Assembly: GCA_963716985.1 (NCBI GenBank)
Contig: OY970323.1
Span: forward strand, 2,001,280-2,065,279
DNA from: an uncultured bacterium
Lineage (GTDB): Bacteria; Chlamydiota; Chlamydiia; Chlamydiales; SM23-39
Reading direction: 5' to 3'
Length of the DNA: 64,000 nt
The translations under genes and the position numbers were made by a program. The notes beneath the pieces are model-generated. The model had not been told where the DNA came from. It did not search any database and saw only the letters and a list, made by a program, of their open reading frames with translations. The stretch's first letter is position 1; the number at the start of each line of letters is the position of its first letter. Positions 17,714-43,400 of this stretch are shown here, in pieces.

Positions 17714-17729
17714 ACGGCGCCAACATTTT

Positions 17730-17781
17730 ATTTTGTATATATCTAATATGTGAATGTATACAAAATGGTGTATTTTGTATA
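17730..17781. promoter_or_regulatory. Putative operator upstream of fic: palindrome TATACAAAAT-N5-ATTTTGTATA plus a third half-site
   Basis: Perfect 10-bp inverted repeat 17757-17766/17772-17781; an identical ATTTTGTATA at 17730-17739. Confidence 0.55.
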
Positions 17782-17848
17782 GTTCTTGTTGTTAAGTTGC
17801 TTTTAGTTAGGCTTTTGCGTGTTAATGTCGAGGATTGTTTTCAGATAG

Positions 17849-19996: not shown

Positions 19997-22900
19997 TCAA
20001 TCCTTCAAATGGCCTTTCCTTTTCCATAAGAAAAACTTAGGCTTCAGATTTTTCGGAACTTTTTTAACTTTTACCGATAGCAATGGCTGGCGGCTATACA
20101 TCGGCACGCGTTTTTTGATATATGTGTCATCCAAGAAGAAGGGCAAGAAAAAGAAATCGCTTGCCAGGTTAAAAGAAGAGGAATCAAATCCTGGGACGGC
20201 AAATGGGAAGGAAACCGTTACAACCACCGGAGGCACCGGTGGAGGAGGGTTGACGCGGCAATCGTGAAGAATCGTCCCGTTCCAAATGAGAATACAGGGC
20301 ACGTTAGAGGGCAGATCGTGAGCCGTATTATCTCCTGATATTCCACTAAAAGTGGCCAAGAAATGGGCCCCTCCATAGACAAACCCGGTGGTTTGCACAT
20401 TAATGGGACTAGAAAAGCTTCCCACATCGCCGGTGAGCGCATTGAATGTTTCGTTGTTTGTCGCTTGGATGAGAGGAGTTACGCCGGTTCCATTTTCAAT
20501 CGATCCTATAGCCTGGAAATTGGGATTGAGCACAGTGATCGGACCTAGAATAATAATATTTCCTGCAACAATAATTAAATTGTTGATCGGGTCCATGGTA
20601 TTCATCAATGCAGTCCCGCTGCCGGTGTTGATCGACACCTCTTCAAGTGTAAAACCTACAGTGCCAATGATCTGTTGATAGGAAAAAGATCCTCCATTGG
20701 TTTGTACGCGAACATCGCTATTGGCCGAAAGAAACGTCGCTCCCGTTGGAAATGCAATGGGCGTGCCATAGGAGGTAAATTGGATGATCTGTCCCGTATT
20801 GACATTGGTCTGGTTTGCTGCAGAGTAGGACTGGTTATTGGCGGAGTAAACCGTATTGTTAATATTAATATCATGACTTGCCTGTATGCTCATTGCTCCC
20901 AATACAGTGGTACTGCTCGATCCAACTCCATTCAAATTCACATCATGAGCATTTGTCACGGAGAAATTTTGCATACTTTGACTTAAGGCAAGAGGATGGT
21001 TGATCGTGACATCCCCAACGCCTGCATCAATCGTAAATGAGTAAGGACCATTCACTTCTTGATCGATGAGGACATTTCCTCCATGAGAGTCGAGCTGAAG
21101 ATTTCCATTCAGAGTCGTATCGGAGGCCAAAGAGATCTGCTGGTTATTCGTAGAAATGGTTCCTCCAAGCGTGTTTAACCCACCTCCAGTTTGCGCAAAA
21201 GTTCCGTCGACCGAGAATGTGATGGCAGGATTGAAAGTCAAGAGCGTTGCATTGTTAATCGTAACGGTCCCTCCGCTTGTGGTCGTTACGTTGCTGTTGA
21301 AAAGGAATTGAGATCCGCTTAACCCAATGGATCCTGCAATGTTCAGAGCTCCGTTGAAAGTAGCAAGCGTTGCCAGATTCGACATGCTCAAGGAGTTGGC
21401 TTTAATTCCGAGCGACGTGAAATTATTTGCACTTCCGATTGTTACCGCATTTAAAGTCGTATTTCCGCCAATAGCTCCGTTGAGGTGGATATCTCCTAAC
21501 CCTGCGATCAGATCCAAATTCTCTGTTCCGGCAAGTCCGTTCACCGTTTGGCTTAGGGTAATTCCGGCAGTTCCAAGGCTCGTGTCGAATATTGTCAATC
21601 CAACGAGTATGAGCGGACTTACGAAGGAGATCGATCCGTGATGCGTGGTATAGGCTCCTGCAGCATAAAGAAACGGGGCCGTTCCGAGCTGCGTATAAGA
21701 GCCGTCAATATCCGTCACATTTGTGGCCACTCCGGTGATGAGCCCGGATACCGTGACGATGAGAGAGCCCAAGTTGGTTGTCGTGATCGCTGCATACCTA
21801 GCAAAGTTCGTTCCCGTCAAATTGATTCCCGCAGCTCCGTTTGTGTTGATCGTTGCCGTTAAAATAGGAGTTCCAATGGTCGTAGTGCCGCTGCCTTGCA
21901 GCTCTGCAATCGACGTTGCAGTTACATTATTTACTTGAGCGTTATATACACTATGAAGGGTGAGCGCACCCACACGGCTCACTCCCCCGATGGCACCGCC
22001 GATCGTTAGGTTTGCCGTAGAAGCGGTTCCTAACGTTAGATCCAAAGAAAAAGGACCGTCGACCGTGTTTAGAGAAATGGCCCCATTGCCGGCAGAAGAG
22101 TCCAGGGAAGCCGCAGCTGTGAGTGTGAGGGCGGAGTCGAATGTAATGCTAGCAAGTGCCGGTGTTGCATTGCTTGCCGCCACATTTCCTGCCAGAGAAA
22201 CATTTCCTGCGCCATTTTGTAAAAAGGCGCCGTTCGAAGTGATCGTCTTGCCCGCGGTGGTTGTGAATAGGCCGCTATTGGTGATCGTAATCGGACCTGT
22301 GCCGGTGGTCGTGACGTTGTCTAAAAAGCTAACTGTTGCTGCCGTTAAACTGATGCCGGATGCTCCGTTTGTATTGATGGCTGCGTTGAATGTGCTGCTG
22401 CTCGTTCCGGTCAATGCAATAGAAGCCGCTGTGATAGCTTGTGTGCTGACAGCTGCATTATTGACAATCGTCAAAGCGCCGAGCCTAGCAATTCCCCCGG
22501 TCGCTTGATGGAAGGTTAAGTTCCCCGTATTGGTATTGAGAGACAGATTTCCGGGGCCGTCGACCGTATTAGAGAAGTCCAGAGCATTCGAACTGGTATT
22601 CAACACCCCTGTGCCCACAGCGGAAAGGGGGCCTAAAAACTGCATGGCTCCGGTGGAGGTGATCGAAGAGGAGAGAATGACAGCGCCGGCGCCCGTTTGG
22701 GAAAAGGCCAATAGATTCGAGCCGTTAGCTCCTGCGTTAAAGGTCAGAGTGCCGGAGTTGTGAATGGTTACGTTAGCAGCTCCATGGGTTGTAAACGTAC
22801 CGTCCAAAGTAAATGCGCTTCCCGTCAAAGAAATCCCCGAAGCGCCGTTGGTATCAAGAGCGCCAATAAAATGGGTAAGGCCGCTTCCTGCCAATTGTGA

Positions 22901-25900
22901 AATCGACGATGCGGTGACAGCCTGCTGGGCCGTTACATTACCGGCCGTCTGTATAGTGATTGCGCCAAGACGGGCGCCGCTTCCTATATTGCCGGAGACC
23001 GTAATAGCACCGGTGCCGGAGGTCATGTCAAAGTCAAATCCCCCATCGACCGTGTTCAGAGAAATGGCCCCATTGCCGGTCGAGCTATCTAGTTTTGCCG
23101 CTGCAGTGAGCGTGATGCCGGAGCTAACGTTAGAGCCAAAGGTAATACTAGCCAAAGATGCGGTCGCATTGGTGGTCATGACAGTTCCTGCCAGAGAAAC
23201 ATTGCCAGATCCATTTTGTAAAAAGACGCCATTCGAAGTGATCGTCTTGCCCGCAGTGGTTGTGAGTAGGCCGCTATTGGTGATCGTGATCGGACCATTT
23301 GAGGTTGTTGTGACGTTGTCTAAAAAGCTAATTGTTGCTGCCGTTAAATTAATACCGGAGGATCCGTTTACATTTAGGGCTCCGTTGAATGTGCTATTGC
23401 TGCTTCCCGTAAGAGCAATAGAAGAAGCGGAGATGCCTTGCGCGGAGAGCGTTCCCGAACAGCTCATCGTTAGTGCATTCAACAAGCTGCAGGAGGCGGC
23501 CAGGGTCAGATTGCTAATGCCGGAAGCAGTAAGAGATAGGCTTCCGGGCCCATTGACCGTACTGTTTAATGTGATGCCACCGCCGGTCAATGAACCTAGG
23601 CCAAGCAACGGAACGACGACAGGCCCTTGAAATTGCATTGTGCTTGTGGCCGTAATCGAAGATGGGAGAGTTGTAGTCGCAGAGCCGACCGTTTGCGAGA
23701 AAGTAGAAAGCGCTGTGCCAATTGCACCTGCTTGAAAGGTCAAAGATCCCAAGTTATTGATGGTAACGCTATTATTGTTCGTTGTGAAGGGAGCGCCAAA
23801 AGTAAAGACACTTCCGGTAAGAGAAAGGGCGCCATTGGTGGTCAGAGCTCCATTAAAAGCAGTGGTGCCCGAGCCGTTGGACTGCGTCAGGGTAGAACCG
23901 GTCGTAACAGCTGCATTGGCAGTGGCGTTTTTGACATTTGTAATCAGGATCGCCCCAAGAACAGAAGATCCTCCGACAACATCTCCAAAGTTCAAAGAAC
24001 CTAGAGTGCCAAGGTTCAAACTCAAAGCTCCTGGACCATCTAAAGTGCTAGAGAAAGTGATGTTCTGCCCGCTTGCAGATGTGTCCAGAGAAGTTGGGTT
24101 CGAAAGAGAGGTGGGACTTGCAAAGGAGATAGCACCTCCGGCAGTCATCGATCCGGCTAAGGAAACAGAAGAGCTGACGCCACCGCTCGTTTGCGTACAT
24201 GCGCCTGCAATCGAATAGGTGGTTCCGCTCAGCGTCAAAAGACCCGAATTGGTCACGATCAGCGGTCCGGTATTTATTGTCGACACATTATTGTTCAGGG
24301 CAAATGCAGATCCGGTAAGATTGATACCGGAAGAGTTGGTCGTCGAAACAGCTCCGTCAAAAGTAGTCGTTCCGCTGCCGGCGCTTTGTGTAATCGAGGA
24401 TGCGCTCATATTTCCAAAAGCATGAAGATCTTGTACAGAAACAATGGTAAGGTTGCCAAGAGAATTAGTGGCACCTACATTGCCGGTAAGTATAATATTT
24501 TGATTACCGGCAGTCATCGAAACATCATTGGCTCCCGGACTATCCAGAGTGCTATGAAAAGTAATCAGCCCTCCGGTTAAGTTTTTAGAATTCAACACAA
24601 GAGGTCCATTGAGAGAAACAGCGCTCGTAAAATAAATGGGCTGATCCGTAGTTGTGATCGAACCTCCTACAAGCACACTACCGGGACCTATTTGGAGAAA
24701 TCCATTTGTTCCATTAATTGCAATCGAGGTTCCGTTTGCAATCGTAAGAGAGCCCGAATGGGCCAGATTCATACCTCCGCCGCTTGCCGCAATGGATCCG
24801 GTAAGATTGATTGTGACAGTATCTAGATCGAGTCCATATCCAAAAGAATCTGCCCCTGTTGCCGTAAGACCTGATTGAAAGTAAGTGGTCCCCGTTCCGG
24901 GACCCGTTTGCTGAAAGTAGCCCAAATCCGCAGTATTATCAACATGCACATTGCGTGCACTCAGAATAATAATGGCAGCTAAAGGAATCGTGTTTCCAAT
25001 TGGCCCAATGAAATACACGTCATGGCCGCAGGCATCGATGGTGAGCTTTCGTGGAGTCAGAATATTATCGCTATTCAAGGATTGGTTGAACGTGATATCG
25101 GCGCCTATGGGACAGGTAGAAAGGGTAATGTCATTGGTTAAAACAACGGAATTAGAAAAAGAAATGGGAACGCCTGAAGTGATGATATTGGTTCCCTGAT
25201 AAGTAATACTGCCGGTATTAATAATAATGGTCGTCGCATATACAGGACCAGTAACAGGAGGATTCACTGGAGGAACGGAAGTAAATGTGGCTATATTTAA
25301 GTTGTGGCCAACATCTCCGATCTGGCAATAGGTAATCGTCCCATTTTGCGCATCCAGGGTCAGATTTTGGCCCGGTCCGATCAGCCAGGGAATCGTAATC
25401 GCGCCTCCATTACTTTGAATCGTCAGGTTGGTCCCGGCATTCAACTCCATCTGTCCCGGGAAGGGCGCAGAGCAGGAACCATTAAAAGTAATTGCATTGC
25501 CACCGGAAGAAATGGTGGTTGTTGCTCCTGAATTAAAAAAGTAGCCTTCTGTAGGTAGTTGCCCAAGACCGGTATAATTTTGTGTGCTTGCCTTATAGAC
25601 CGTTCCCAGGAAGGTAATCGTGTTAGAAGCAGTTAGCGTAGTCGTCCCCGTAGCTCCCGCACCTGCAGATCCAAAATCGTGCCAAGAGATACTATCGCTC
25701 GTGATTGCAAAATTGTTAAAAGGGACGCTTCCGGCAATCACGTTGCCAAGCGTTACGCTCGTTGCATGACCGGTTGCCGTTGTAAGGGTCAGGCTTTTGC
25801 CTGACGTATTGGGATTCAGCGTTCCCGTAATGGAAATATTTCCAACGCCCGGAGTAGAGGTGATCGTGGTGATGGTCAAAGTCGACGTAGTGGTGACATT

Positions 25901-28900
25901 TCCGCCGGTCAAAGTAATATTGCTTCGATCCGTAGTAATATTGCCGCCAATGCTCATCGCTCCCGTTTCAAGGATCGCTCCCACCGTTTGCAATGTGCTC
26001 ATTTGAACAATATTGGCGCCCGTTGCGGTCAAACTGCTCAAAGGATTGGTGTTTCCGACTGTTCCATCGAATTGTATGCTTCCGCTTCCTGCTGTCAACG
26101 TAAGGGCTTGCGCGCCATTCAAGGTGCTAGAGAATGTGACGTTCTGGTTTGCGGCAGAGGTGTCCAGAGAAGTTGTGTTCGAAAGAGAGACGGGGCTTGC
26201 AAAAGAGATGGCCCCTCCGGCAGTCATTGCTCCGCTCAAAGAAACAGAAGGACTGCCGCCGCCGCTCGTTTGGGTGCATGCGCCTGCAATCGAATAGGTG
26301 GTTCCGCTCAGCGTCAAAAGGCCCGAATTGATCACAACCAGCGGTCCGCTGCTTGTTGTCGTGACATTGTTCAGCGTAAATGCAGATCCGGTAAGATGGA
26401 TCCCCGTAAGCGTGCTCGTTGATAGAGCTCCATTATAGGTTCCGCTTCCGGCATTTTGTGTCAAAGAAGCTGCTGTAATGGCAGCCGCAGTGACATTTCC
26501 GCTTTGTACCGTCACATCGATCAGAGGGATCGTTCCCCCGATCGCTCCTAGACCTATGCTTCCGACGCCGGCAGTGAGCGTTAAATCATAGCCTCCATTT
26601 ACGGTGGAAGAGAGGGTGATCGTATTGCCGCCCGAATTGAGCGCCACGCCATTGGTCAGGGTGATGGGAGATGCAAATGATAACAGTCCCACCGTAGAGA
26701 TCGGAGCTCCGAGAGAAACGGCAGAACCGCCGCCGCCGCTTGTTTGGGTAAAGCTGCTGCTCGATGTAATGGTAGAGCCAACAGGAATGGTAAGCGTTCC
26801 ACTATTAGTAATGGCAATCGGACCTAAATTGGTCGTTGTGATCGTGTTGTTCACATTAATGGTATTGCCGTTCACGCTAATGCCATCTGCCGTTGTGGTT
26901 GAGATCGTACCATCAAAAGTAGTGGTTCCCGTTGAGGCAAGGGTCAAAGGCCCTGCAATGGCCATACTGCCAAAAGAATGGATGTTATTGGCGCTGGACA
27001 CCTCAAGCTTTGTAGGAGGTGCTAGAAGGCCAACGGCCCCATTAAGATTTACATTGCCGGCACCGGCGGTGAGCGTCAAATCAAAAGCTCCGTCCACAGC
27101 TGCCAAATCGATATCTCCGCCGCCGCTATTTAAAGTCGTTGCATCCATTAAGGTGATCGGAGAGGCAAAGCTGATCAGAGCATTGTTTGTCGTAATGCTA
27201 GCGTCCAAATGGACGGCTCCCGTTCCATTTTGCTGGAAAGATCCTGCAAGATTGAAGGGACCGGCATTGACAAGCGTCAAAGTGCCGCTATTGGTAATCG
27301 TAACGGACCCTCCGCTTGTGGTCGTTACGCTGCTATTGAAAAGGAATTGAGATCCGCTCAAAGCAATCGGTCCTGCAATGTTCAAAGCTCCATTGAACGT
27401 AGCAAGCATTGCAAGGTTCGACATGCTCAAGGAGTTGGCTTTAATTCCGAGCGACGTGAAATTATTTGCACTTCCGATTGTTACCGCATTTACATTCTTT
27501 GTCCCGCCAATAGCTCCGTTGAGGTGGATATCTCCTCCCCCTGCGATCAGATCCAAATTTTCTGTTCCGGCAAGTCCGTTCACCGTTTGGCTTAGGGTAA
27601 TTCCGGCAGTTCCAAGGCTCGTATCGAATATTGTCAATCCAACCAGTACGAGCGGACTTACGAAGGAGATCGATCCATGGTGCGTGATATAGGATCCCGC
27701 AGCATAAAGAAACGGGGCCGTTCCGAGCTGTGTGTAAGAGCCGTCAATATTTGTTGTGTTCGTCGCCACTCCGGTGATGAGCCCGGATACCGTGACGATG
27801 AGCGAGCCCAAGTTGGTTGTCGTGATCGCTGCATATCGGACAAAGTTCGTTCCTGTCAAATTGATTCCCGCAGCTCCGTTTGTGTTGATCGTTGCCGTTA
27901 AAATAGGAGTTCCAATGGTCGTAGTGCCGCTGCCTTGCAGCTCTGCAATCGACGTTGCAGTTACATTATTTACTTGAGCGTTATATACACTATGAAGGGT
28001 GAGCGCACCCACACGGCTCACTCCCCCGATGGCACCGCCGATCGTTAGGTTTGCCGTAGAAGCGGTTCCTAACGTTAGATCCAAAGAAAAAGGACCGTCG
28101 ACCGTGTTTAGAGAAATGGCCCCATTGCCGGCAGAAGAGTCCAGGGAAGCCGCAGCTGTGAGTGTGAGGGCGGAGTCGAATGTAATGCTAGCAAGCGCCG
28201 GTGTTGCATTGCTTGCCGCCACATTTCCTGCCAGAGAAACATTGCCCGCTCCGTTTTGTAAAAAGGCGCCGTTCGAAGTGATCGTCTTGCCCGCGGTGGT
28301 TGTGAATAGGCCGCTATTGGTGATCGTAATCGGACCTGTGCCGGTGGTCGTGACGTTGTCTAAAAAGCTAACTGTTGCTGCCGTTAAACTGATGCCGGAT
28401 GCTCCGTTTGTATTGATGGCTGCGTTGAATGTGCTGCTGCTCGTTCCGGTCAATGCAATAGAAGCCGCTGTGATAGCTTGTGTGCTGACAGCTGCATTAT
28501 TGACAATCGTCAAAGCGCCGAGCCTAGCAATTCCCCCGGTCGCTTGATGGAAGGTTAAGTTCCCCGTATTGGTATTGAGAGACAGATTTCCGGGGCCGTC
28601 GACCGTATTAGAGAAGTCCAGAGCATTCGAACTGGTATTCAACACCCCTGTGCCCACAGCGGAAAGGGGGCCTAAAAACTGCATGGCTCCGGTGGAGGTG
28701 ATCGAAGAGGAGAGAATGACAGCGCCGGCGCCCGTTTGGGAAAAGGCCAATAGATTCGAGCCGTTAGCTCCTGCGTTAAAGGTCAGAGTGCCGGAGTTGT
28801 GAATGGTCACGTTGCCGGCACCGGTGGTAGTAAACGTACCATCCAAAGTAAATGCGCTTCCCGTCAAAGAAATCCCCGAAGCGCCGTTGGTATTAAGAGC

Positions 28901-31900
28901 GCCAATAAAATGGGTAAGGCCGCTCCCTGCCAATTGAGAAATCGAGGACGCGGTAACGGCCTGAAGCGTTACATTGCCCGCCGTTTGTATGGTGATTGCG
29001 CCAAGACGTGCAGTGCTTCCTATATTGCCGGAGGCGGAGGTCGAAATAGTTCCGGTCCCTGAGGTCATGTCAAAGGAAAATGCCCCATCGACCGTATGCA
29101 AAGAGATGGCCCCATTGCCGGTCGAGCTATCTAGTTTTGCGCTCGCGGTGAGCGTGATGCCGGAGCTAACGTTAGAGCCAAAGGTAATACTTGCCAAAGC
29201 TGGTGTTGCATTGGTGGTCGTGACATTTCCTGCCAGAGAAACATTTCCTGCGCCATTTTGCAAAAAGGCGCCATTCGAAGTGATCGTCTTGCCCGCGGTG
29301 GTTGTAAATAGGCCGGTATTGGCGATCGTAATGGGACCCGTCCCGGTGGTCGTGATGTTGTCTAAAAAGCTAATGGCAGCTCCTGCTAAATTGATGCCCA
29401 AGGATCCATTTGTATTGATTGCGCCGTTGAATGTGCTACTGCTCGTTCCCGTAAGAGCAATAGACGCGGCCGTGACGGCTTGTGTGCTGATCGTTCCATT
29501 ACAAGCGATGGACAGCGCTCCCAGGCGAGAAATCCCTCCAACAGCATTCGTGCATGTGATCGAACCTCCGCCTGTCGTCAAGAAAAGAGCAAAAGGTCCA
29601 TCGAGTGTGTTGTTACAATTAATGTTTCCCCCGCCCGTAGAGGTGTCCAGAGACGTGATTGCCATTAGGGTTACGGGCCCATTGAATGTAATGTTATTGG
29701 GCGTATTGTGCGTTTCGGTAATGGACCCTGCAAGTTGCACGCTTCCGGTACCCCCGGACTGGTTTTGGGTAAATGGACCGTCGACTGTGCAGATCGCGGA
29801 CGTGCTCAGCACCAGCGTTCCTGAAACCGTAAAAGTTGCGGGCCCCAAGTTCGCCGTGTTCAACGTATTATTCAGAGAGACGTTTTTCGTCGTCAAAACA
29901 AGTCCGGCAACACCACTAAAGTCCAGAGCCCCATTGAAAGTTGTTGTGCCCGTTCCGGCCGCTTGGCTCATGGAAGTAAGCGTCATCGCATTGGCAGTGA
30001 AATTATTCGTCGTATGAACGGTCACAGCGCCAAGTCGGGAAATTCCTCCGGCAATGCCCGTAAAGGTAATGTTGCCGCCTCCGGCCGTTAAATCAAGAGA
30101 TTGCGTTCCATTCACAGTATTTGAAAAAATGATATCTCCCACCTGGAGCAACGTACCGGTATTTAAGATCGTAGATCCCGTTAAAGTAATAGGCCTAAGT
30201 AAGGAAATGTCAAATCCATTCGTATTAATGGTCCCGGCAAGATTCGTAGAGCCGCTGCCCGTATCCGTAAATCCGCCGTCGGCGGAAATGATCACGCCGC
30301 CGGCGATTGTCAGAGTGCCGGAATGGCTGATGGAAACAGGGCCATTGCTTCCGTTTGCGGTTGTCACATTCGCATTCACTGCAAAATTTGTTCCCGTTAA
30401 ATTAACGCCTGAAGCGGTAGTGGTATTGACGGTGCCGTTAAAAGTTGTCGTTCCGCTGCCGGCGCTTTGCGTAAGAAAGCCCACAGCCATGGGAGCGGTT
30501 CCTGCCGTGGTCACATTATTTGCTTGTGGTATTGTAATCGATACTAAAGGATGAACCCCTCCGACTGCGCCCGTAAATGTAACGTTTCCTGTAGTTCCCG
30601 ATCGGAGTACAAGAGGTGTTGTTGCGGAAACGGCTCCGTTCAGCGTACCGGGAAAGCTAATCGTGGCTCCGGCGGGAGTTGCATTTGCATTGGTGCTATC
30701 AAGAGTAAAAGTTGAGGCTCCATTTACCTGCGTCGGCCCGTTCATGGTGATGGTTCCGCCGGCCGTAGTAATGTTGCCAAAAAGATTGATGAGAGTCGAT
30801 CCCGTGTAACTAACAAGTCCGGGAATTGTCGTCGATGTCTTGACCGTGCTGTCCTGGACAATCGTTGCAGCGGATATAGTCAGACTAGCCAAAGGTGTCG
30901 TAGCTCCGACAGCTCCCGTCAGTGTTGCCGTTCCGGTGCCGCAGGTGAGGGTAAGTGCATTCGCACCGTCAATTGTACTATTAAAGGTGGTAGTGAGATT
31001 GCTCGTCGAGGTAATAATGCTCGTTCCGGCAAGAGCAACTGCGGCCGGAAAGTTTAAGGGATTCGCTCCCGTCACCGTAATGTTGCTTCCTATCTGGATG
31101 GTTCCCGTACTGCTAGTAAAGGTAAGATTCGTTAACGCGGCTGTTGCTCCAACAGCTCCGCTCAGAGTAATCGTGTTCGAAACTCCGGTTCCATCTTTCA
31201 GAGTGAGAACAAACGCACCATTAATCGTGCTCGTAGATCCGCTGAACGTAATGTTATTGCCGGCAGGAGAGCCTCCGCCATTGGTCGTGTCTACCTGGAG
31301 GGTAGCGCCTAAAGTAACAGGACCGGTAAATGTAACAATTCCCGCGGCTGTAGTGAGACTTCCTCCCAGATTGATGGCAGTGGGCGCTGTGTAACTAATC
31401 GCTCCTGTAGTTTTGGCCGTACTACTCTGGGTAATCGTTGCCGCAGTTGCAGTTAGGCTAGTCAAAGGAGTTGTTGTTCCAACAGCTCCGCCCAATGTCG
31501 TGATGAACGCCCCTGTCCCACCATTCAATGTAAGGGCAAATGCTCCATTAATCGTGCTCGTAGATCCACTGAACGTAATGTTATTGCCGGCAGGAGAGCC
31601 TCCGCTATTGGTTGTGTCCACTTGGAGGGTAGCGCCTAAAGTAACAGGACCGGTAAATGTAACAATTCCCGCAGCTGTAGTGAGACTTCCTCCCAGATTG
31701 ATGGCAGTCGGTGCTGTGTAACTAATCGCTCCTGTAGTTTTGACCGTGCTGCTTTGGGTAATCGTTGCCGCAGTTGCAGTTAGGCTAGTCAAAGGAGTCG
31801 CTCCCCCAACAGCTCCGCCCAATGTCGTGATGAACGCCCCTGTCCCACCATTCAATGTAAGGGCAAATGCTCCATTAATCGTGCTCGTAGATCCACTGAA

Positions 31901-34900
31901 CGTAATGTTATTGCCGGCAGGAGAGCTATGGGTCGTGTCCACTTGGACAATTGCGTTCAAAGTAATGGGGCCGGTAAATGAAACGCTTCCCGCAGACGTA
32001 GTGAGATTTCCTCCCAGGTTGATGGCAGTCGGTGCTGTGTAACTAATCGCTCCTGTAGTTGCGACCGTTACCGTTGTGCTCTGGGTAATCGTTGCTGCAG
32101 TTGCAGTTAAGCTAGCTAGAGGCGTCGTCCCTCCAACTGCGCCTCCCAATGTAATCGTCCCCGCCGTTCCTCCCGTCAACCCAAGCGCAAAGGCGCCGTT
32201 GATCGTCGTCGAGCTTCCTGAGAAATTGATATTGGATCCAGCTGCGGTTCCCCCGCCATTTGTCGTATCGATCACCACACCGGCTGCCAATGTGACCGGA
32301 CCCGTCATCGTCACCGTGCCGCTGGTCGCTGTACTCGTAGTGATGTTGCCGCCCAGGCTGATACCAGTGCCTGAATAGCTCACCGCACCCGTCGTTTTAA
32401 CGGTCGAACTCTGGGTCACTGTTGATGCTGCGCTCGTAGCGCTCAAAGAAGTAATAGCAGTCGTTGCACCAACTGCACCGCCAAAGGTGATCGTCGCCGC
32501 ACCCGCCGTCGTAACGGTCAAATTGCGCGTATTGGCCGTTCCATCCGAATCGATCGTTGAATTAAAAGTCGCGCTGAAACCTGATGAGGGGCTAATCGTC
32601 ACGCTGGTTGCAGTCGCAGTCGGAGAATTGTTTAACAAAACAACGCGGCCGGCCGGGAAGGAAATGCTGCTATTCGTCGTCGTAACTGCAATGGTATTTT
32701 GTAGCTGGATCTGCCCGGTGGTCGCTGAAAAGTTCAAAGTCCCAATCGAGATCGTGCCTCTTAATACGGTGATTCCCGTCGTTGTATTGGTCAACGTGGC
32801 AATACTGCTGGTTGCCGCTCCATTGATGGGGCCCACTGTGATCGTGCCTGTTCCGGAGCTGGCTGTGAACGTCGAGGCGGCAGGGACTTGGATTGTGCCC
32901 GTTGTAAAGGTCAAGGCATTGTTATTGGTTGTAAATGTCGTGACTCCCGAGCTCAATTGAAAATTGGTCGCGGCGGTGTATGTTTGGGCATTGGCGTTAT
33001 AAGTTAAGCCATTGAAATTAATGGCGCCTAAACTCGTGAGTGCGGTAGCACCCGAAACGCCAGCAGAAGCTGCGCCGATGCTATTAACATTGATCGTTGC
33101 AGCGTTGGTTACAGTCAGAGTAGAGAGCGCCGACGACCCTCCAACTACGCCTCCCAGAGTCACCGTCCCTCCCGTTCCTCCATTCAACCCAAGCGCAAAG
33201 GCGCCGTTGATCGTCGTCGAACTTCCCGAGAAATTGATATTGGACCCGGCTGCTGTTCCTCCGCCATTTGTCGTATCGATCACCACACCAGCTGCCAATG
33301 TGACCGGGCCCGTCATCGTCACCGTGCCGGTGGCCGCTGTACTCGTGGTGATGTTGCCGCCCAGGCTGATGCCGTTGCCCGTGTAGCTCACTGCGCCCGT
33401 TGTTTTAACGCTCGAACTTTGCGTTAATGTGGTTCCGCTGTTTGCGGTTAGCGAAGCGATCGGCGTGATTCCTCCGACTGCTCCTCCTAGCGTAATCGTC
33501 CCCGCCGTGCCGCTCGTCAATCCAAGCGCAAAGGCACCGTTGATCGTCGTCGAAGATCCTGAGAAATTAATATTGGATCCAGCTGCGGTTCCTCCGCCAT
33601 TCGTCGTATCGATCACCACACCAGCTGCCAATGTGATAGGTCCTGTCATCGTTACCGTGCCGCTGGTCGCTGTACTCGTAGTGATGTTGCCGCCCAGGCT
33701 GATACCAGTGCCTGAATAGCTCACCGCACCCGTTGTTTTAACGGTCGAACTCTGGGTCACTGTTGATGCTGCGCTCGTAGCGCTCAAAGAAGTAATAGCA
33801 GTCGTTGCACCAACTGCACCGCCAAAGGTGATCGTCCCCGCACCCGCCGTCGTAACGGTCAAATTGCGCGTATTGGCCGTTCCATCCGAATCGATCGTTG
33901 AATTAAAAGTCGCGCTGAAACCTGATGAGGGGCTAATCGTCACGCTGGTTGCAGTCGCAGTCGGAGAATTGTTTAACAAAACAACGCGGCCGGCCGGAAA
34001 GGAAATGCTGCTATTCGTCGTCGTAACCGCAATGGTATTTTGTAGCTGGATCTGCCCGGTGGTCGCTGAGAAGTTCAAAGTCCCAATCGAGATCGTGCCT
34101 CTTAATACGGTGATTCCCGTCGTTGTATTGGTCAACGTGGCAATACTGCTGGTTGCCGCTCCATTGATGGGGCCCACTGTGATCGTGCCTGTTCCGGAGC
34201 TGGCTGTGAACGTCGAGGCGGCAGGGACTTGGATTGTGCCGGTTGTAAAAGTCAAGGCATTGTTATTGGTTGTAAATGTCGTGACTCCCGAGCTCAATTG
34301 GAAATTGGTCGCGGCGGTGTATGTTTGGGCATTGGCGTTATAAGTTAAGCCATTGAAATTAATGGCGCCTGAACTCGTGAGTGCGGTAGCACCCGAAACC
34401 CCCGCAGAAGCTGCGCCGATGCTATTAACATTGATCGTGGCGCTCGTAGCGCTCAAAGAAGTAATAGCAGTCGTTGCACCAACTGCACCGCCAAAGGTGA
34501 TCGTCCCCGCACCCGCCGTCGTAACGGTCAAATTGCGCGTATTGGCCGTTCCATCCGAATCGATCGTTGAATTAAAAGTCGCGCTGAAACCTGATGAGGG
34601 GCTAATCGTCACGCTAGTTGCAGTCGCAGCCGGAGAATTGTTTAACAAAACAGCGCGGCCGGCCGGGAAGGAAATACTGCTATTCGTCGTCGTAACTGCA
34701 ATGGTATTTTGTAGCTGGATCTGCCCGGTGGTCGCTGAAAAGTTCAAAGTCCCAATCGAGATCGTGCCTCTTAATACGGTGATTCCCGTCGTTGTATTGG
34801 TCAACGTGGCAATACTGCTGGTTGCCGCTCCATTGATGGGGCCCACTGTGATCGTGCCTGTTCCGGAGCTGGCTGTGAACGTCGAGGCGGCAGGGACTTG

Positions 34901-37900
34901 GATTGTGCCCGTTGTAAAGGTCAAGGCATTGTTATTGGTTGTAAATGTCGTGACTCCCGAGCTCAATTGAAAATTGGTCGCGGCGGTGTATGTTTGGGCA
35001 TTGGCGTTATAAGTTAAGCCATTGAAATTAATGGCGCCTAAACTCGTGAGTGCGGTAGCACCCGAAACGCCAGCAGATGCTGCGCCGATGTTATTCACAT
35101 TGATCGTTGCAGCGTTGGTTACGGTTAGGCTGGCGAGCGCCGACGACCCTCCAACTACGCCGCCCAAAGTCACCGTCCCTCCCGTTCCTCCATTCAACCC
35201 AAGCGCAAAGGCGCCATTGATCGTAGTCGAAGATCCTGAGAAATTAATATTGGATCCAGCTGCGGTTCCCCCGCCATTTGTCGTATCGATCACCACACCA
35301 GCTGCCAATGTGACCGGGCCCGTCATCGTCACTGTGCCGCTGGTCGCTGTGCTCGTGGTGATGTTGCCGCCCAGGCTGATGGCAGTTGGTGCGGTATAAC
35401 TAATCGCCCCTGTAGTTTTGACCGTGCTGCTCTGGGTAATCGTTGCTGCAGTTGCAGTGAGACTGGCCAAAGGAGTCCCTCCGCCAACAGCTCCCGTAAG
35501 TGTTGCTCCTCCGGTTCCGCAGGTGAGGGTAAGTGCATTGGCACCATTGATCGTGCTACTAAAGGAGATAGGGAAACTACTACCCGTTGAGTTGATGAGG
35601 CTTGTCCCGTTTACGCTCACCGCGGCCGGGAAGTTTAAGGAGCTTGCTCCCGTTAGCCTGATGTTGCTTCCAATTTGGATCGTTCCTGTACTGCTACTAA
35701 AACCAAGACCTGCTAATGCCGTAGTTCCTCCAACAGCACCACCCAAAGTAATCGTGTTCGTAGATCCACTATCTAAAAGAAGATTAAATGCACCATTAAC
35801 CGTGCTCGTAGATCCACTGAAAGCAATGCTATTGCCGCTGCCGGCAGGACCTACTCCATTGGTCGTGTCCACCAAGATGTTGTTTCCTAAAACAACGGGA
35901 CCGGTAAATGTAACGGTTCCTGCAGCTGTCGTGAGATTTCCTCCCAGATTGGTGGCAGTCGGTGCTGCGTAACTAATACCGCCTGTAGTTTTGACCGTGC
36001 TGCTCTGGGTAATCGTTGCTGCAGAAACAACAAGGCTACCTAAAGGTGTCGTGGCTCCGACAGCTCCGCCGAATGTCGTGGTAAACGCCCCCGTTCCCCC
36101 TAGCAGGGTAAGAGCAAATGTACCATTAATCGTGCTCGTAGATCCGGTGAAAGTAATGCTGTTGCCGGCAGGAGCGCTATTAGTCGTGTCCACCTGTACG
36201 GCAGTGCTCAGCGTAACAGGCCCGGTAAATGACACGCTTCCACCTGATGTGGTAAGATTTCCTCCCAGGTTGATGGCAGTGCCTGTGTAACTAATCGCTC
36301 CTGTAGTTGCGACCGTGCTATCCTGATTAATCGTTGCAGCAGAGACAACGGCGAAACTGGCCAAAGGTGTTGTGGCTCCGACAGCTCCCGTAAGTGTTGC
36401 CGTTCCGGTTCCGCAGGTGAGGGTAAGTTGATTGGCACCGTTGATCGTACTACTAAAAGTGGTGGTGAGGTTACTCGTTGAGTTGATGACGCTTGTCCCG
36501 ATTACGTTCACTGGAGTCGGGAAATTTAAGGGATTCGCGCCTGTCACCCTGATGTTGCCTCCTATCTGGATGGTTCCCGCGGGGCTAGTAAAGGTAAGAT
36601 TTGTTAACGCGGTTGTTCCTCCAACAGCTCCGCCCAGAGTAATTGTTGAGCTCGAAGCTCCGGTTGCGTCTTGCAGAGTGAGAGCAAATGCGCCATTAAT
36701 CGTGCTTGTAGAACCGCTGAATGTAATGTTATTTCCGGCACCAACGTTTTTGGTCGTGTCCACCATAAGGCTCGTTCCCAAAACAACAGGACCGGTAAAT
36801 GTAACGCTTCCGCCTGATGTAGTGAGATTTTGGTTCAGGTTAATGGCAGTAGGGGCAGTGAAGCTAATAGCTCCGATAGTTTTTACTGTGTTGCTTGGTG
36901 TAATCGTCGATCCGCTCACTGTAAGAGAACTCAAAGCAGCAGACGTGGAGGATCCTCCAACAATAGCGGAAAAAGTAACCACTCCCGCCCCGGCATTAAT
37001 GTTTAAAGAAGAGTTGGTCCCTTGGCTTTGCACCTGTCCGGTAAAACTCACAGCACCGCCGCTCGTATTAATGATCAAGTTTTTTTGCAATTGAACGAAT
37101 ACACTATCGTTAAAATCAACTGCTCCACCTCCGGAAGTAATCGTTACCGGATTGGTGATCACAGAAAGGTTGGCGAAGGTTGAAAAGACAATCGCCGCAT
37201 TATTGGTCTGTATATTGGCTCCAAGAGATACGGATGCAAAGAGGTCATTTCCCTGAAATGTTAGAGTTACTCCACCAGTTGTTATATTAATGGGCGCATT
37301 GGATTCTTGTGTGATGGTTTCCCCACACAATATCACATTCGAAGCTGCACCATTAATTTGCGTCGTTCCAATGGTAGTAGGTGTTGATGTGTCTGCACAG
37401 TAGAGAGGCAAGCTTCCCGAAGAGCCGGATACAATGTCAAGTGTACTTGGGTCTAAAAGCCAATCTCCCGGCTTTCCCGCAGGCGAAAGAGAATTAACCC
37501 ATCCGGTCATACAACCAAGATTTTTCCTGCCGGAGGTTTCGACAAAACCTCCATTTCCTCCTTTCTCTCCGCCGCGCGTGTAGATCTTGCCGTTGAAAAG
37601 CGTATTTCCATCCGACCAGAGAATGACCCGCCCGCCATTTCCTTCGGTTTTCGCATCCGCGAAGATGCACGATTCCGCATCCATGGAAGTGGAAAGGGAG
37701 TTGCGCAAAGGACCTTTTCCCTGATAACTTCCCCCAATAAAGACCTCTCCTCCCCCAAAAAGACCCGACGCATCGATCTTGGATTTTTGAAGAGAGATGT
37801 CCGCTCCCTCTAAAATGACCCGGCCTCCCTTCTCTCCGGAAACGTCTATTTTCCCGGAAATTTGTAGCTCCTCGCCATTGAGATGCACCTCTTTAGAAGT

Positions 37901-38695: not shown

Positions 38696-40377
38696 AAAGG
38701 TTGCCCCGTTAATTTTATATAAACAAAGGGGCTCTTGCTGCTATCGCGGTGGTTCAAGGGAAAGCCTACATCCAGACTAAAGGTCAGAGAATAAGGGCCA
38801 TTCACTCTTAAACCCACCCCGGACCCCCATTCGAATGTGCTCTTTTCCGATTGAAGAAACACCCCGCCGTGGTCAACAAAGCCCGCAATTTGGACTATCT
38901 CCTTCCAACTTTTCTTTGCCATAAAAAATCTTTTATTGGCAAGAAAAGGAGGAGGAATGCGCAATTCCATGTTTACATAGTAGCCGCTATCCCCCAACGC
39001 ACTGGCCAGAGGAAAGCCGCGCACCGTATCAATGCCCCCAATGTAAATCACCTCGGGAAGCGTCAATTTATAGGGACTCCACTGTCCCGATCCATGCAGA
39101 TACAAATAACAGTTTCGCGGCAGTTGCTGGATGCGGTCGTAATCGGCATTCATTTTAAGAAAAAGGCCGCCGGCGCCATTTCTAGAGCAGCCGGAATCCA
39201 CGCTCCTAAGACCGCCAAGAAAATGGGGAATGCCATAGGACATGCGAAAGTTGAGATAATCTCTTCCCTTAGCAAGGCCATAATGATCGAAAAGAAAGCC
39301 CGCTGTCAAAACGCGCAGCTTGTCATAAGACGCCGTCGAGTGTAAGACAAAATTTCCGATCTGCTTGAAATCGAAATAGGAGAAAAAATCAACGCTCCAA
39401 AAAAGCCGCCTCATGATCGCGTGGCTCACCTTTAAGGTGGCAATGTCGGACCTTCCTCTTAGATCCAGAAATTTTAGCTCTTCGACCTTGAATTTTGAAA
39501 AGAGGTAGGAGCATTCAAGAAAGGTTCCTTTGGCATTCAGGGGAACGGTATAGGAAACGTCGGTAAAAAAAAGGGCTTCAATGGGAAATCCCACAACCTG
39601 CGCCACGGAAATTTTATCCCCATAAAAAAAGAGGCTGCCTCCATCAAAACGGCCGCCCACGCGCGCGTTGGTGGTAAGAAACCTTCCATAGTTGTTTCCG
39701 TTGAGATACAAATGTAGGGGCCGTCCATCATCAACCCGTAAAATGACGTCAGCCGTGCCAAACGCTTCGCCTCTCTCAAACACGGCTCCGGCTGCAAGAT
39801 CGCTATTTTCATTGAGCAGCATCAAGGAGCGTAAAAAATCGTTGTAGCGCAAAGGGTGTCCCTGCAAAGAAGAAAAATATTTCAAAATGAAGGGGGTGCT
39901 GTAATGCTTATTACCCTCTATAGAGATCTTCCCCAATTTCCCTTCAATGATCTCAATGGTGAGAATACCATCTCTAATTTCTTGCACAGGAGGATAGGCG
40001 CGCGCAAGGAAAAATCCTTTCTCTGCATATTTTTCATCGATGCGCCGGCAAAGCTCATAGATCTCTTTGATGCTCATTTCGCGATTCAGATCGCAGTCAA
40101 CCCAAGAGTATATTTCTTTTGTGGAGACGGACTCATTTCCCTGAATGCGCACCTCTTTAATCAGCACCTTCTTGTCTTCCGGCAAAGCAAGCCTTTCTTT
40201 GGGAATGTCAATCTGGATGGAGGGAACTTCTCGTTTCGGCTCTAAGGGCTTGCCCTCATACTCCTTTTCCAGCTGTCTTTCCACGATACCTGCAGAAGGA
40301 GTCGCGGGCGGAAGGGCAGAAAGAGCGGATGCAATCAATACAAACAGGACTAATAAAACAAAATTTTTCTTATGCAT
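38692..40377 (-). CDS. TpsB outer-membrane transporter (ShlB/FhaC/HecB family)
   Basis: Signal peptide, POTRA (Y.EKGFFLARAY.P.QEI.DG.L.I.IIEG), VRGF loop-6 motif (GGIDTVRGF), terminal Phe. Confidence 0.93.
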   Translation of the reverse strand: MHKKNFVLLVLFVLIASALSALPPATPSAGIVERQLEKEYEGKPLEPKREVPSIQIDIPKERLALPEDKKVLIKEVRIQGNESVSTKEIYSWVDCDLNREMSIKEIYELCRRIDEKYAEKGFFLARAYPPVQEIRDGILTIEIIEGKLGKISIEGNKHYSTPFILKYFSSLQGHPLRYNDFLRSLMLLNENSDLAAGAVFERGEAFGTADVILRVDDGRPLHLYLNGNNYGRFLTTNARVGGRFDGGSLFFYGDKISVAQVVGFPIEALFFTDVSYTVPLNAKGTFLECSYLFSKFKVEELKFLDLRGRSDIATLKVSHAIMRRLFWSVDFFSYFDFKQIGNFVLHSTASYDKLRVLTAGFLFDHYGLAKGRDYLNFRMSYGIPHFLGGLRSVDSGCSRNGAGGLFLKMNADYDRIQQLPRNCYLYLHGSGQWSPYKLTLPEVIYIGGIDTVRGFPLASALGDSGYYVNMELRIPPPFLANKRFFMAKKSWKEIVQIAGFVDHGGVFLQSEKSTFEWGSGVGLRVNGPYSLTFSLDVGFPLNHRDSSKSPFVYIKLTGQPF

Positions 40378-40470
40378 AACCTGATTCTACAAAGTTCACT
40401 TTTTTTTAAAAGCTAATTTTCAAAATTTTTGAAAAAAGGCGCTTCCTGTGCCATAAGAAAAACTTACGCT

Positions 40471-43400
40471 TCAGATTTTTTCGGGAACCTCTTTAACTGT
40501 TATCGATGGCAATGGCTGGCGGTAATAGATCGGCACGCGTTTTTTGATATATATGTCCTCCAAGAAAAAGGGCAGGAAAAAGAAATCGCTTGCCAGGTTA
40601 AAAGACGAGGAATCAAATCCTGGGACGGCAAATGGGAAAGAAACGGTTACAACCACCGGAGGCGGTGTGGGAGGAATCGTACAATTCTTAATGACAACCC
40701 CATTAAAGATGATCTTGCAGGGAGGATCGGCAAGAAGCCATTGGACCGTATGATCTATAGAGAATCCATCGAGATCGGCCAGACTCAGTCCCGGACCTCC
40801 TCCGACAATGATTTGGTTTGCGCTATGGACCAAAAGCGGGCTTGATAAAGATCCGACATTCCCGCCTTGCGCATCAAAAATAGGTGTATTATTGCAAATA
40901 ATCAGCTCGGACCCTGCGGTATTCAAGATGTCTTTCAGTGAGACAAGATGCGTGTTGATCGGATCGATCGAACCCGAAATGGTAATATTTCCCGCAGTAA
41001 CCATCAGATTGTTAATCGTTCCGCCGCTGGCAATGGTATTGAGAGCCGCGGTTCCCGTTCCAGTGCTGATGATGATATTTTCAAAAGTAGTCCCCAATAG
41101 GCTCACAAATGAAAAACTGCCATTGTTCGTGATCACCTGAAGATCATTGAACGCTCCTAAATGAATCGTGCCGTTTGTGAAAGCAATCGGACCACCAAAT
41201 GAAGTGAGATTGGTTTGCGAGCCGGTATTGAAAGTGAATTCATTGGCCGCAGAGTAAATCTGCGTGTTCGCATTATATACTGTGTTACCAAAGATGATAT
41301 TATGCGAAGCAGTCAGATTGAATGTTCCTGTAACGCCTGTGGCAACTGAGCCAACTCCCATTAAATTGATGTCATGCGCTGAGCTGACTGTGACATTTTG
41401 AAGCGCGACGTGATTTCCAATGAACCCATTGAAGATCGCATCGCCGCTTCCTGCTGCCACAGCAAGATTATAAGGTCCATCCACTTCTGCTACAGCGGCA
41501 TTGGCGCTGCCGCTCGTGATTGAAAGATCCCCGGTAAGGGTCAATAGAGATTGGAATTCAACGGGATGATTATTTGTGGCGAGTGTTCCTCCGCCAGAAA
41601 CATGGCCGCTGCCATTCTGCAAAAAGGCGCCGTCGATTGAAAAGTTAAAATTAGTGCCCAAAACAAGGGGACCGGAATTGGTAATGGTGAATGGTCCGCT
41701 TGTCAAGGTTGTGACATTGCCAAGAACATTAAAAGCAACGCCTGACATCGTTATGCCTGCCGCTAGGCTCGTATTCAGATCTCCAGAAATAGTGGCTGAA
41801 GTAGAAATTCCCGATAGACTGATGGAACCTGCTGTGATGGCCAAAGCATTGAATGTGCCCGCTGAATTGACTTGAAGAACGCCGAGCGTGCCCGCATTTT
41901 GATCCAATGCAATGGCGCCGAAGCCAGTGTTCAATGTTAAATTGTGCGATCCACTGACCGCCCTTATAAAAGTGATATTCCCTACGGTGGCTCCGGTATC
42001 GAGCGAAACGTTATGGCCCAGCACAACGGCCCCTGTGAAAAGAATCGAGTTTCCAGCCGTTGTGAAGTTATCGGCAAGCGATACATTGCCGCTATTCAGT
42101 TGCGTGAAGTTTCCTGTGATGTTAAAAGGAGCTCCTGTTGCAATCGTAAGAAGACCGGAATTGGTAATTTGTACCGGACCTCCGTTTAATGTCGCGACGG
42201 GGGCATTAAAAGTAAATTGGCTGCCCGTCAGATTGATTCCATTGTTAAGCGTGGTTGTTAGAGCACCATTGAAAGTGGTGAGTCCGCCGCCTTGGGATTG
42301 AACGAAGCAACCCGCCAAAACCGCTTGCAATGAAGCATTATTCGCACTTTGAATCGTGAGTGAATGAACGCCTGTGATACCTGCCGATACGGTGGTGTTT
42401 CCGCTTCCCGAAGCTAAAACGAGAGCCTGATTGCCAGTTATGGTACTAACAATGAGGATGGTTCCGCCATTGCTATTGATCGTCGTTGCATGGGTCAGGC
42501 TGAGTGCATTGTTAAATGTGATGTTCTCGTTATTTGTAATGAGAGTTCCTTCCAGCGAGATCGCGCCAGATCCGCTCTCCGTAAACGAACCTGAAATGCT
42601 GGTCGAGGCGCCGAAAATCAGGGTCGATGGCGCCGTGTGGGCAATGGTAAAAGATCCAAGTGTTGTGATGTCAGAGCCATTTAAAACAAAGGCAGCTCCA
42701 GAGAGATTGATATTGCCCGTTGTATTGAGATCGCCAGCCATCGTAGTCGTTCCGGCGCCTGCGCTTTGTATAATCGAGGCGGCTCGGATCGAGCTGGCGG
42801 TGATGTTGTTTGCATTTGTAAAGATGAGATCTCCCAGACGTGAAGATGAACCGGCTGCCCCAGTGATTACAATGTCAGCCGCTCCAGAATTAAGAGTCAG
42901 ATTTCCCGGCCCATTCAAGGTGGAGGAAAGCGTAATCGCCTGAGATGAAGCCGTCAAGAAAGGACTGCTGGAAACGGCAACGCCTTTACTAAAGAAAATG
43001 GGGCCATCGCTGGTCACCGAGCCGGTAAGAACTGAGGACCCTAGCCCATTTTGCGTAAAGCGCGCCAAAGAGCCGTCGGATAATGTGCAGGCTGCATTGA
43101 TGGTGAGAAGGCCTCCATTTGTCAAAATAATCGGTCCATTCGCTGTCGTTTGAACCGTATTGTTTAGAGTGATTGCATTCGCGTTAATCTGAATTCCACC
43201 CCCCGCACTAGTATTAGTTGTGCCATTTAAAGTCGTGGTTCCAGTGACAGCTCCCGATTGTTGCACAAAAGAGGTCGTTTTTAAGCCATTAAAAGTTACA
43301 TTATTTGCATTTGTAACGGTCACGATGCCGAGGCGCGTTGAGGATCCAACGCCCGCCAAAAATGAGATATCGCCATTTCCGCTGGTCAAGGTCAGCGTCC

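What the first reader, a model, noticed from the sequence alone, without database searches (positions are those of the whole stretch)
19997..20300. Shared C-terminal cassette: C-X11-C loop, Pro linker, aromatic block, polybasic end
Seen: both giants end in PC(X11)C (Cys codons 20294/20258 and 40717/40681), then PPP.VVVTVSFPFAVPGFDSSSFNLASDFFFLPFFL.D.YIKKRVP.Y.RQPL and a Lys/Arg-rich end. This block is almost identical between the genes while the preceding ~300 aa have diverged. Known: HMW1 and Pseudomonas CdrA are retained in their TpsB pore by a C-terminal disulfide loop. Inference: a cysteine-hook anchor plus a new periplasmic retention or sorting signal.
Basis: partly seen in the sequence, partly recalled or inferred. 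Interest (0 to 1): 0.72.

Follow-up and report, generated by a model that had tools for sequence, protein, structure and literature searches.

The report
Chlamydial giant adhesin tail anchor

Summary
The cassette is real, with one error: gene B has no polybasic end, because a 2-nt frameshift stops it early. It is a conserved TpsA tail with no Pfam, NCBIfam or PDB sequence match. It has 104 profile hits among 1.84 billion representatives (one false), occurs in 51 of 400 genomes of the phylum, and mostly follows one TpsB clade (28 of 34 same-contig pairs).

Layout: beta-helix cap with C-x11-C hairpin, Pro linker (7-38 aa), aromatic motif F.VPG..S..FNLASD(Y/F)(Y/F)F, a P(I/M)YY strand, then a variable end.

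The motif is under purifying selection (10 synonymous, 0 amino-acid changes against the sister genome). The A/B near-identity reflects a later DNA exchange.

The Cys pair covaries strictly, so it is likely a disulfide. But AlphaFold puts it in the folded cap, it lies 34-323 aa from the C-terminus, 10 of 99 homologues lack it, and this closed genome has no DsbA/DsbB.

Best reading (0.55): cap outside, linker through TpsB, aromatic motif as anchor. An HMW1/CdrA-type cysteine hook is the main rival (0.2). New variant of a known kind.

The parts
19997..38695 (-). Gene A: giant TpsA, 6232 aa, signal peptide, TPS domain, beta-helix repeats, conserved tail
   Evidence: ORF; PF05860 E 3e-30; overlaps the TpsB stop by 4 nt
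20258..20620 (-). A: last beta-helix rungs and cap (aa 6026-6146), ending in the disulfide-flanked hairpin
   Evidence: AlphaFold pLDDT 95-98 for model residues 1-120; residues 1-123 align to EtpA 8vba 930-1079, Z 9.8, rmsd 3.0, 114 aa
20258..20296 (-). A: C6134-x11-C6146 hairpin
   Evidence: strands at model residues 110-113 and 116-120; 78 of 99 homologues have this pair, 9 a shifted pair, 10 none
20210..20257 (-). A: Pro-rich linker (aa 6147-6162), inferred to cross the TpsB pore
   Evidence: Cys2-to-PG length 7-38 aa, median 22, n=101; mean column conservation 0.38
20120..20209 (-). A: aromatic motif (aa 6163-6192), the inferred anchor
   Evidence: columns L 97/101, F 94/100, G 87/102; 20 identical, 10 synonymous, 0 changed codons vs G001
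20090..20113 (-). A: terminal KRVPMYSR strand (P[IM]YY-type), shared even with the short Cys-less TpsA subclade
19997..20077 (-). A: Lys/Arg-rich end, not conserved
   Evidence: out of frame in B; about 200 nt downstream of the stop in G001; net charge >= +4 after the YY strand in only 32 of 101 homologues
38692..40377 (-). TpsB transporter, 561 aa, member of a distinct clade
   Evidence: ShlB and POTRA_2; clade members E<1e-100, other TpsBs about 1e-11 to 1e-34, 5 genomes in between
40471..63999 (-). Gene B: second giant TpsA, open past the window edge (8662 aa open to the contig end; its likely N-terminus is at the contig start)
40681..40719 (-). B: C-x11-C hairpin, diverged from A except PC, I, NG, I and C
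40549..40638 (-). B: aromatic motif, exchanged with A
   Evidence: A vs B 25 identical, 3 synonymous, 2 changed codons, while the cap is 23/29/74
40471..40490 (-). B: +2 nt frameshift and early stop that remove the basic end

Best explanation
This is a conserved C-terminal module of Chlamydiota giant two-partner-secretion proteins that likely keeps the exported filament tethered to its TpsB pore, with the cysteine pair predicted to staple the folded beta-helix cap, the proline linker likely threading the pore, and the aromatic motif likely acting as the anchor. Shown: the conservation, the order of the parts, purifying selection, the link to one TpsB clade, the dispensable basic end, and the A/B exchange. 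Predicted: both cysteines sit at the end of the folded beta-helix. Inferred: the protein is exported N-terminus first and folds outside. The 7-38-residue linker (median 22, about 60-70 A if extended) spans the barrel. The aromatic motif and the P(I/M)YY strand stop in the lumen or on the POTRA groove and halt release. No LapG-type release switch is encoded.
For: Module at the C-terminus of TpsA-sized ORFs: 104 clusters, 103 after dropping P0098, 50 of 103 >= 1000 aa; 51 of 400 phylum genomes, 3 of them marginal. Of 34 same-contig pairs, the clade TpsB lies directly upstream in 28, the tail gene lies directly upstream of such a TpsB in 4, and 2 are unclear. The three other TPS-like proteins in G000 lack the motif. 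Motif selection: 10 synonymous, 0 amino-acid changes, versus 67/69 upstream. The Cys pair ends the pLDDT 95-98 region and the tail is at 60-73; both cysteines fall in the span aligned to the last EtpA rungs. Nine homologues move the first Cys 7 residues upstream, onto a predicted cap strand, which fits a fold-based staple. The motif persists in the 10 Cys-less homologues, which fall in about five places on a weak quick tree. G000 has no DsbA, DsbB or VKOR, while the same search finds DsbA/DsbB in Chlamydiota G063, G064 and G344. Precedent for C-terminal periplasmic anchors and for an amphipathic-segment groove on POTRA2: PMC5422565 passages.
Against: Retention is inferred from position and precedent only. 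Co-occurrence with one TpsB clade could be plain operon inheritance. The shortest linkers (7-13 aa, 6 of 101) cannot span the membrane unless the motif sits inside the barrel. Cys loss tracks DsbB loss (23 of 31 Cys-pair genomes have DsbB, 3 of 15 Cys-less ones; kin inflate this), so the bond may form in the periplasm, where it could block the pore. A short-TpsA subclade using the same TpsB clade keeps the terminal R.APIYY strand but not the aromatic motif. Three clusters (P0081, P0083, P0099) end soon after the linker without the motif. AlphaFold models the folded end state, not the transit state.
Confidence: 0.55

Rival explanations
1. HMW1/CdrA-type cysteine hook: the C-x11-C loop oxidises in the periplasm and jams under TpsB, so loop, linker and motif all stay periplasmic and the motif is a secondary signal.
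For: Strict Cys covariation: 88 of 99 homologues have a pair, none has Cys1 alone. The association with DsbB is 23/31 vs 3/15. The TPS domain's plasmid matches are filamentous-haemagglutinin-N-terminal and MBG/YDG-domain TpsA genes. Disulfide anchors are described for HMW1, HxuA and CdrA (PMC5422565, PMC13405001 and PMC11898600 passages).
Against: The pair is predicted within the folded cap and lies 34-323 aa from the C-terminus (median 71), before the linker. In HxuA the anchor is in the unresolved last 66 aa, and in CdrA the LapG site of the retention module is about 49 aa from the end. It is lost in 10 of 99 homologues and in the hairpin of 10 short-clade proteins. Eight Cys-pair genomes, this one included, have no detectable DsbB. 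PMC8151025 says small loops should not block type V translocation in general.
Confidence: 0.2
2. The tail is a transient periplasmic control element, like the Bordetella FhaB prodomain (recalled): it times folding or export and is then degraded or cleaved, releasing the filament.
For: The motif is low-confidence in isolation (pLDDT 60-73), as a partner-binding element might be. It is followed by free-length, free-charge ends (0-271 aa).
Against: No LapG (the control rang in Caulobacter). No conserved cleavage-like motif stood out in the column table. No sequence link to the CdiA YP secretion-arrest region.
Confidence: 0.12
3. The whole module is exported, and the aromatic motif works outside the cell: it packs on the cap, joins filaments, inserts into the outer leaflet or binds the host.
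For: Aromatic-rich segments can bind membranes, and short-linker members exist.
Against: AlphaFold with 53 rows does not fold the motif onto the cap. Host-binding parts usually diversify, whereas this motif stays under purifying selection and is recognisable across at least seven families.
Confidence: 0.1
4. Neutral gene conversion between A and B explains everything.
For: A and B are closer in the motif (25/3/2 codons) than A is to its G001 orthologue (20/10/0), although A's cap is far closer to G001; DNA identity runs past B's stop.
Against: The motif is kept in about 100 distant clusters and shows only synonymous change between orthologues. Conversion explains the A/B similarity, not the conservation.
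Confidence: 0.02

Closest known systems
Haemophilus HMW1/HMW1B and HxuA/HxuB C-terminal disulfide anchor
   Same: Type Vb pair with a TPS domain and a beta-helix filament; a small C-terminal Cys loop; inferred surface retention (PMC5422565 passages).
   Different: Here the Cys pair is predicted to close the folded cap, and a Cys-free linker plus a conserved aromatic motif of 55-90 aa follow it. The pair is dispensable in the family, and the genome lacks DsbA/DsbB.
Pseudomonas CdrA/CdrB (cysteine hook, LapG release)
   Same: Giant surface TpsA with a conserved C-terminal module and a variable repeat stalk (PMC13405001 passages).
   Different: No LapG. CdrA itself was not fetched, so no direct sequence comparison was made. 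Two plasmid TpsAs (one MBG-annotated) end in a Cys-containing helical tail that does not match this profile.
ETEC EtpA
   Same: Best structural match for the last rungs and cap (8vba, Z 9.8, rmsd 3.0, 114 aa); operon order tpsB-tpsA.
   Different: The match covers model residues 1-123 only; the linker and motif have no structural match. EtpA is described as secreted (PMC11463764 passages).
CdiA YP (Tyr/Pro) secretion-arrest region
   Same: A non-disulfide, aromatic/Pro-rich segment thought to halt export in the TpsB pore (PMC9086364 passages); a functional analogue.
   Different: No detectable homology: score -2.1 bits, rank 6 of 3094 positions, 99.7% of shuffles as good. It is internal in CdiA and terminal here; no FHA-2 domain was found (whose controls did not ring).

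Membership tests
Two-partner secretion (type Vb) TpsA/TpsB | N-terminal TPS domain after a signal peptide | tested here: met
   PF05860 E 3e-30 at aa 46-245 of A; signal peptide judged by eye
Two-partner secretion (type Vb) TpsA/TpsB | Adjacent TpsB with POTRA domains and ShlB-type barrel | tested here: met
   PF08479, PF03865, PF01103 in 40377-38692
Two-partner secretion (type Vb) TpsA/TpsB | Beta-helix passenger | tested here: met
   last 120 aa before the linker modelled as beta-helix, best matches EtpA and FHA
HMW1/HxuA/CdrA cysteine-hook anchor | Conserved, covarying Cys pair near the C-terminus | tested here: met
   88 of 99 have a pair, 10 none, 1 (a TpsB fusion) only Cys2
HMW1/HxuA/CdrA cysteine-hook anchor | Loop lies beyond the folded filament, in the terminal periplasmic segment | tested here: not met
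   predicted inside the cap, before the linker, 34-323 aa from the end; model-based
HMW1/HxuA/CdrA cysteine-hook anchor | Periplasmic DsbA/DsbB to oxidise the loop (expected, not proven even for HMW1 per PMC8151025) | tested here: not met
   none in the 99.5% complete G000; found in Chlamydiota controls; an unknown oxidase is not excluded
HMW1/HxuA/CdrA cysteine-hook anchor | Cys mutation releases the protein from the cell | not testable with these tools
   needs the bench
CdrA/LapG-regulated adhesin | LapG protease in the genome | tested here: not met
   PF06035 0 of 1; control rang in Caulobacter
CdiA YP secretion-arrest domain | Sequence homology to the YP region | tested here: not met
   HMM and PSSM scans of one CdiA; a single sequence only, no profile-profile test
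Any Pfam/NCBIfam C-terminal TpsA family (e.g. DUF3739, recalled) | Profile match to the tail | tested here: not met
   Pfam: no match over 1 of 53 members or better than E 0.017; NCBIfam: 11 members, best E 0.081 to an unrelated family

The most novel reading that the evidence does not exclude
A disulfide-independent, sequence-specific plug: Chlamydiota evolved their own TpsB clade and a short aromatic peptide that docks in the barrel or POTRA groove. It anchors surface filaments of up to about 10,800 residues even in genomes without DsbA/DsbB. That would be a third way of holding a TpsA on the cell, beside cysteine hooks and CdiA-type arrest, and a portable tag for surface display.
Probability: 0.35. 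Interest if true: 0.72.

Novelty: new variant of a known kind. Interest (0 to 1): 0.5.

Why it matters
How TpsA proteins stay on the cell is known for a few systems, mostly through a C-terminal disulfide loop. This family separates the disulfide from the conserved terminal motif and supplies natural variants (canonical pair, shifted pair, no pair, short linker, short-TpsA subclade) that make the question directly testable with a mini-TpsA. It also marks a giant-adhesin system in about an eighth of sampled Chlamydiota genomes, for which my four chlamydia-directed literature searches found no description. It gives a 93-position profile that finds the ends of these repeat-broken giant genes in metagenome assemblies.

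Tried and rejected
1. Homology to the CdiA YP region, a resemblance I recalled: rejected on one CdiA sequence.
2. Homology to the Azospirillum giant TpsA end, which has a similar look: hhalign probability 0.1. Its own search gave 7 proteins, five near-identical Azospirillum-type and two more distant.
3. The polybasic end as a signal: rejected.
4. B's early stop as a long-read error: not supported.
5. PDB sequence searches: 0 hits with A2, 1 chance hit with A4. ESM Atlas: no usable hit, which shows neither absence nor novelty. tblastn of the tail against plasmids: no match.
6. Complex prediction of TpsB with the tail: tool not available, no verdict. Foldseek 'pdb': machine busy, no result. A TpsB model was submitted but had not finished.
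7. An alignment for folding a natural TpsB-tail fusion came out scrambled and was dropped.
8. Expression: no RNA holder listed.
9. Earlier findings of the scan: nothing by sequence, words or place.
10. The Cys/DsbB tally script mis-picked 2 hairpins (L003, L023) and stopped at L082. Those two and the last 8 rows were read by eye.
11. Ruhe 2018 and Cooley 2016 were not held; they and Buscher 2006 are known here only through reviews. No supplements were read, and genome-paper supplements could list these genes.

Full report
Setting. The window is the last part of a single-contig 2.07 Mb genome (99.5% complete). I infer Chlamydiota from the titles of related loci. Of 17 loci found among the GTDB species genomes, 5 are titled Parachlamydiales, 2 Rhabdochlamydiaceae, 1 Simkania, 1 Chlamydiales, 3 Verrucomicrobia and 5 only 'bacterium'. 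On the minus strand lie gene B (ending 40471), a TpsB (40377-38692; ShlB and POTRA_2) and gene A (38695-19997; 6232 aa; TPS domain E 3e-30). B stays open to the contig end. A TpsA N-terminus 75% identical to A's lies at the contig start, behind a broken TpsB remnant, so the locus looks like a tandem duplication.

Observation. The shared block has 42 identical, 5 synonymous and 4 changed codons of 51, against 46/80/167 upstream. Two details are wrong. First, B has two extra bases and stops at KEVPEKI, so only A has the basic end; a contig from run X2 shows the same DNA across 40200-40517. Second, the Cys loop is outside the near-identical block: 8 of its 13 residues differ.

A family, not a local quirk. 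The last 200 aa of A matched 11 of 61 genomes, one of them marginal. A profile from 11 tails matched 37 of 400 genomes of the class, and a 53-row profile matched 51 of 400 of the phylum, three marginally. Among 1.84 billion representatives the short profile found 104 proteins; I dropped P0098 as false, and 50 of the other 103 are 1000 aa or longer. Open frames reach 10,804 aa. Pfam, NCBIfam and PDB sequence searches gave nothing meaningful.

The order of parts is constant: last beta-helix rungs, a cap segment A.F.G..D.T(V/I)H...NPP, the hairpin C.I.FNG..I.DC, a Pro-rich linker of 7-38 aa (median 22, n=101), the motif F.VPG..S..(F/Y)NL(A/S)(S/N)D(Y/F)(Y/F)F, an acidic-Tyr stretch, a P(I/M/L)(Y/F)(Y/W) strand, and a free end of 0-271 aa. 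Three clusters end without the motif (P0081, P0083, P0099).

Selection and exchange. Against the orthologue in G001, the 30-codon motif shows 10 synonymous and 0 amino-acid changes; the region more than 130 aa upstream of Cys1 shows 67 and 69. A and B are closer in the motif (25/3/2) than A is to G001 (20/10/0), though A's cap is far closer to G001 (79/32/19 versus 23/29/74). So the copies exchanged this block after the two genomes split, and selection acts as well. The basic end is expendable: in G001 its DNA lies about 200 nt behind the stop, 29 of 101 homologues end within 5 aa of the YY strand, and only 32 have net charge of +4 or more there.

The cysteines. Of 99 homologues covering the hairpin, 78 have the canonical pair, 9 pair Cys2 with a Cys seven residues further upstream, 1 has three Cys, 10 have none, and 1 (a TpsB fusion) has Cys2 only. 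That pattern points to a disulfide. AlphaFold, with 53 rows, gives a beta-helix at pLDDT 95-98 through residue 120 of the model. Cys109 and Cys121 flank a hairpin, the shifted position 102 lies on a cap strand, and the linker and motif fall to 60-73. Residues 1-123 align with the end of EtpA (Z 9.8, rmsd 3.0, 114 aa). Cys2 lies 34-323 aa from the C-terminus (median 71). The Cys-less rows fall in about five places on a quick, weakly supported tree (8 of the 10 were long enough to include).

G000 has no DsbB, DsbA-like or VKOR match, and tblastn with 7 chlamydial Dsb proteins found nothing better than E 0.07. The family search does find them in G063, G064 and G344. Against my reading, the pair tracks DsbB: 23 of 31 genomes with the pair have DsbB versus 3 of 15 without (partly read by eye, kin not independent, some genomes incomplete). 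So the bond may often form in the periplasm.

The transporter. TpsB matches are bimodal: a clade at E<1e-100, and other TpsBs near 1e-11 to 1e-34, with 5 genomes in between. Of the 36 non-own tail-positive genomes, 33 have the clade; two of the three exceptions were marginal tail hits that vanished with the larger profile. Of 19 clade-positive genomes with no tail at first, 14 matched the larger profile; 0 of 10 more complete genomes with only other TpsBs did. In 34 same-contig pairs the clade TpsB lies directly upstream of the tail gene in 28. Ten of the new matches are short TpsAs (about 680-1150 aa) with a Cys-less hairpin and a different tail that still ends in R.APIYY. The three other TPS-like proteins of G000 lack the motif. 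No LapG is encoded.

Mechanism. From passages of PMC5422565: TpsA proteins are bound unfolded by POTRA domains, probably exit N-terminus first, and in HMW1 and HxuA stay locked by a C-terminal disulfide loop. PMC13405001 and PMC11898600 (passages) give the CdrA hook and LapG site. PMC8151025 (passages) notes that small loops should not block type V export and that the role of Dsb in TpsA anchors is untested. Here the order is reversed: disulfide first, linker second, conserved motif last. I therefore infer that the cap folds outside, the linker crosses the barrel, and the aromatic motif with the YY strand is the stop (0.55). The cysteine hook (0.2), a transient processed element (0.12) and an extracellular role (0.1) remain.

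Known relatives and novelty. It is a member of type Vb secretion. It likely works like HMW1, HxuA and CdrA retention, but fails the hook's positional test. It resembles the CdiA YP arrest region in concept (PMC9086364 passages) but not in sequence. Four searches directed at chlamydial two-partner systems (listings only) and one at TpsA retention showed no description of this family. Subscription journals and supplements were not covered.

Verdict. A real, selected and apparently undescribed Chlamydiota TpsA tail; a new variant of a known kind; mechanism inferred; interest 0.5.

Noticed in passing
L008:587-2365 (P0002), L010:726-1358 (P0063), P0097: Three separate in-frame fusions of a partial TpsB to the TpsA tail, as if the whole giant gene had been deleted between them; real deletions or assembly chimeras.
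   Followed up: partly
G000:C1:1-2598 and contig end: Gene B seems to cross the contig origin inside its repeat array, with a frame change at the join; a frameshifted 3' remnant of TpsB (89% DNA identity over 306 nt) precedes it.
   Followed up: partly
window 32130-35440 (gene A) versus gene B repeats: A and B share repeat blocks of up to 2.2 kb at 94-98% DNA identity, and the last 600 nt of the contig match window 33792-34391 exactly: ongoing exchange or assembly collapse.
   Followed up: partly
whole genome G000: No DsbA, DsbB or VKOR detected in a closed chlamydial genome; 21 of 51 tail-bearing relatives also lack a DsbB match, which is odd for a group known (recalled) for disulfide-crosslinked envelopes.
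   Followed up: partly
L076-L088: Short TpsA subclade (about 680-1150 aa) on the same TpsB clade, mostly with a Cys-less hairpin, an acidic linker and a different motif ending R.APIYY.
   Followed up: partly
window 16568-19741: A DDE transposase (19741-17918) and a Fic-family gene (17713-16568) lie between gene A and trkH; in G001 the orthologue sits next to trkH without them.
   Followed up: no
G000:C1:249363-253940, 440104-443364, 1822048-1824078: Three further TPS-like proteins with unrelated ends; the first two have their own TpsB downstream.
   Followed up: partly
window 19997-38695: 156 of 524 Asn in gene A are in N-X-S/T sequons; no search for an HMW1C-like glycosyltransferase was made.
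   Followed up: no
L113:11866-17519 and L114:9923-16295: Two alphaproteobacterial plasmid TpsAs end in a similar Cys-x10/11-Cys helical tail, are followed by caspase-family genes and lie near type VI secretion genes.
   Followed up: no
window 9000-12030: A Sel1-like repeat protein ending in a CCCSIL prenylation-like motif (10598-9000) and a Pro/Ser-rich orphan (12030-11017), judged by eye as possible host-directed proteins.
   Followed up: no
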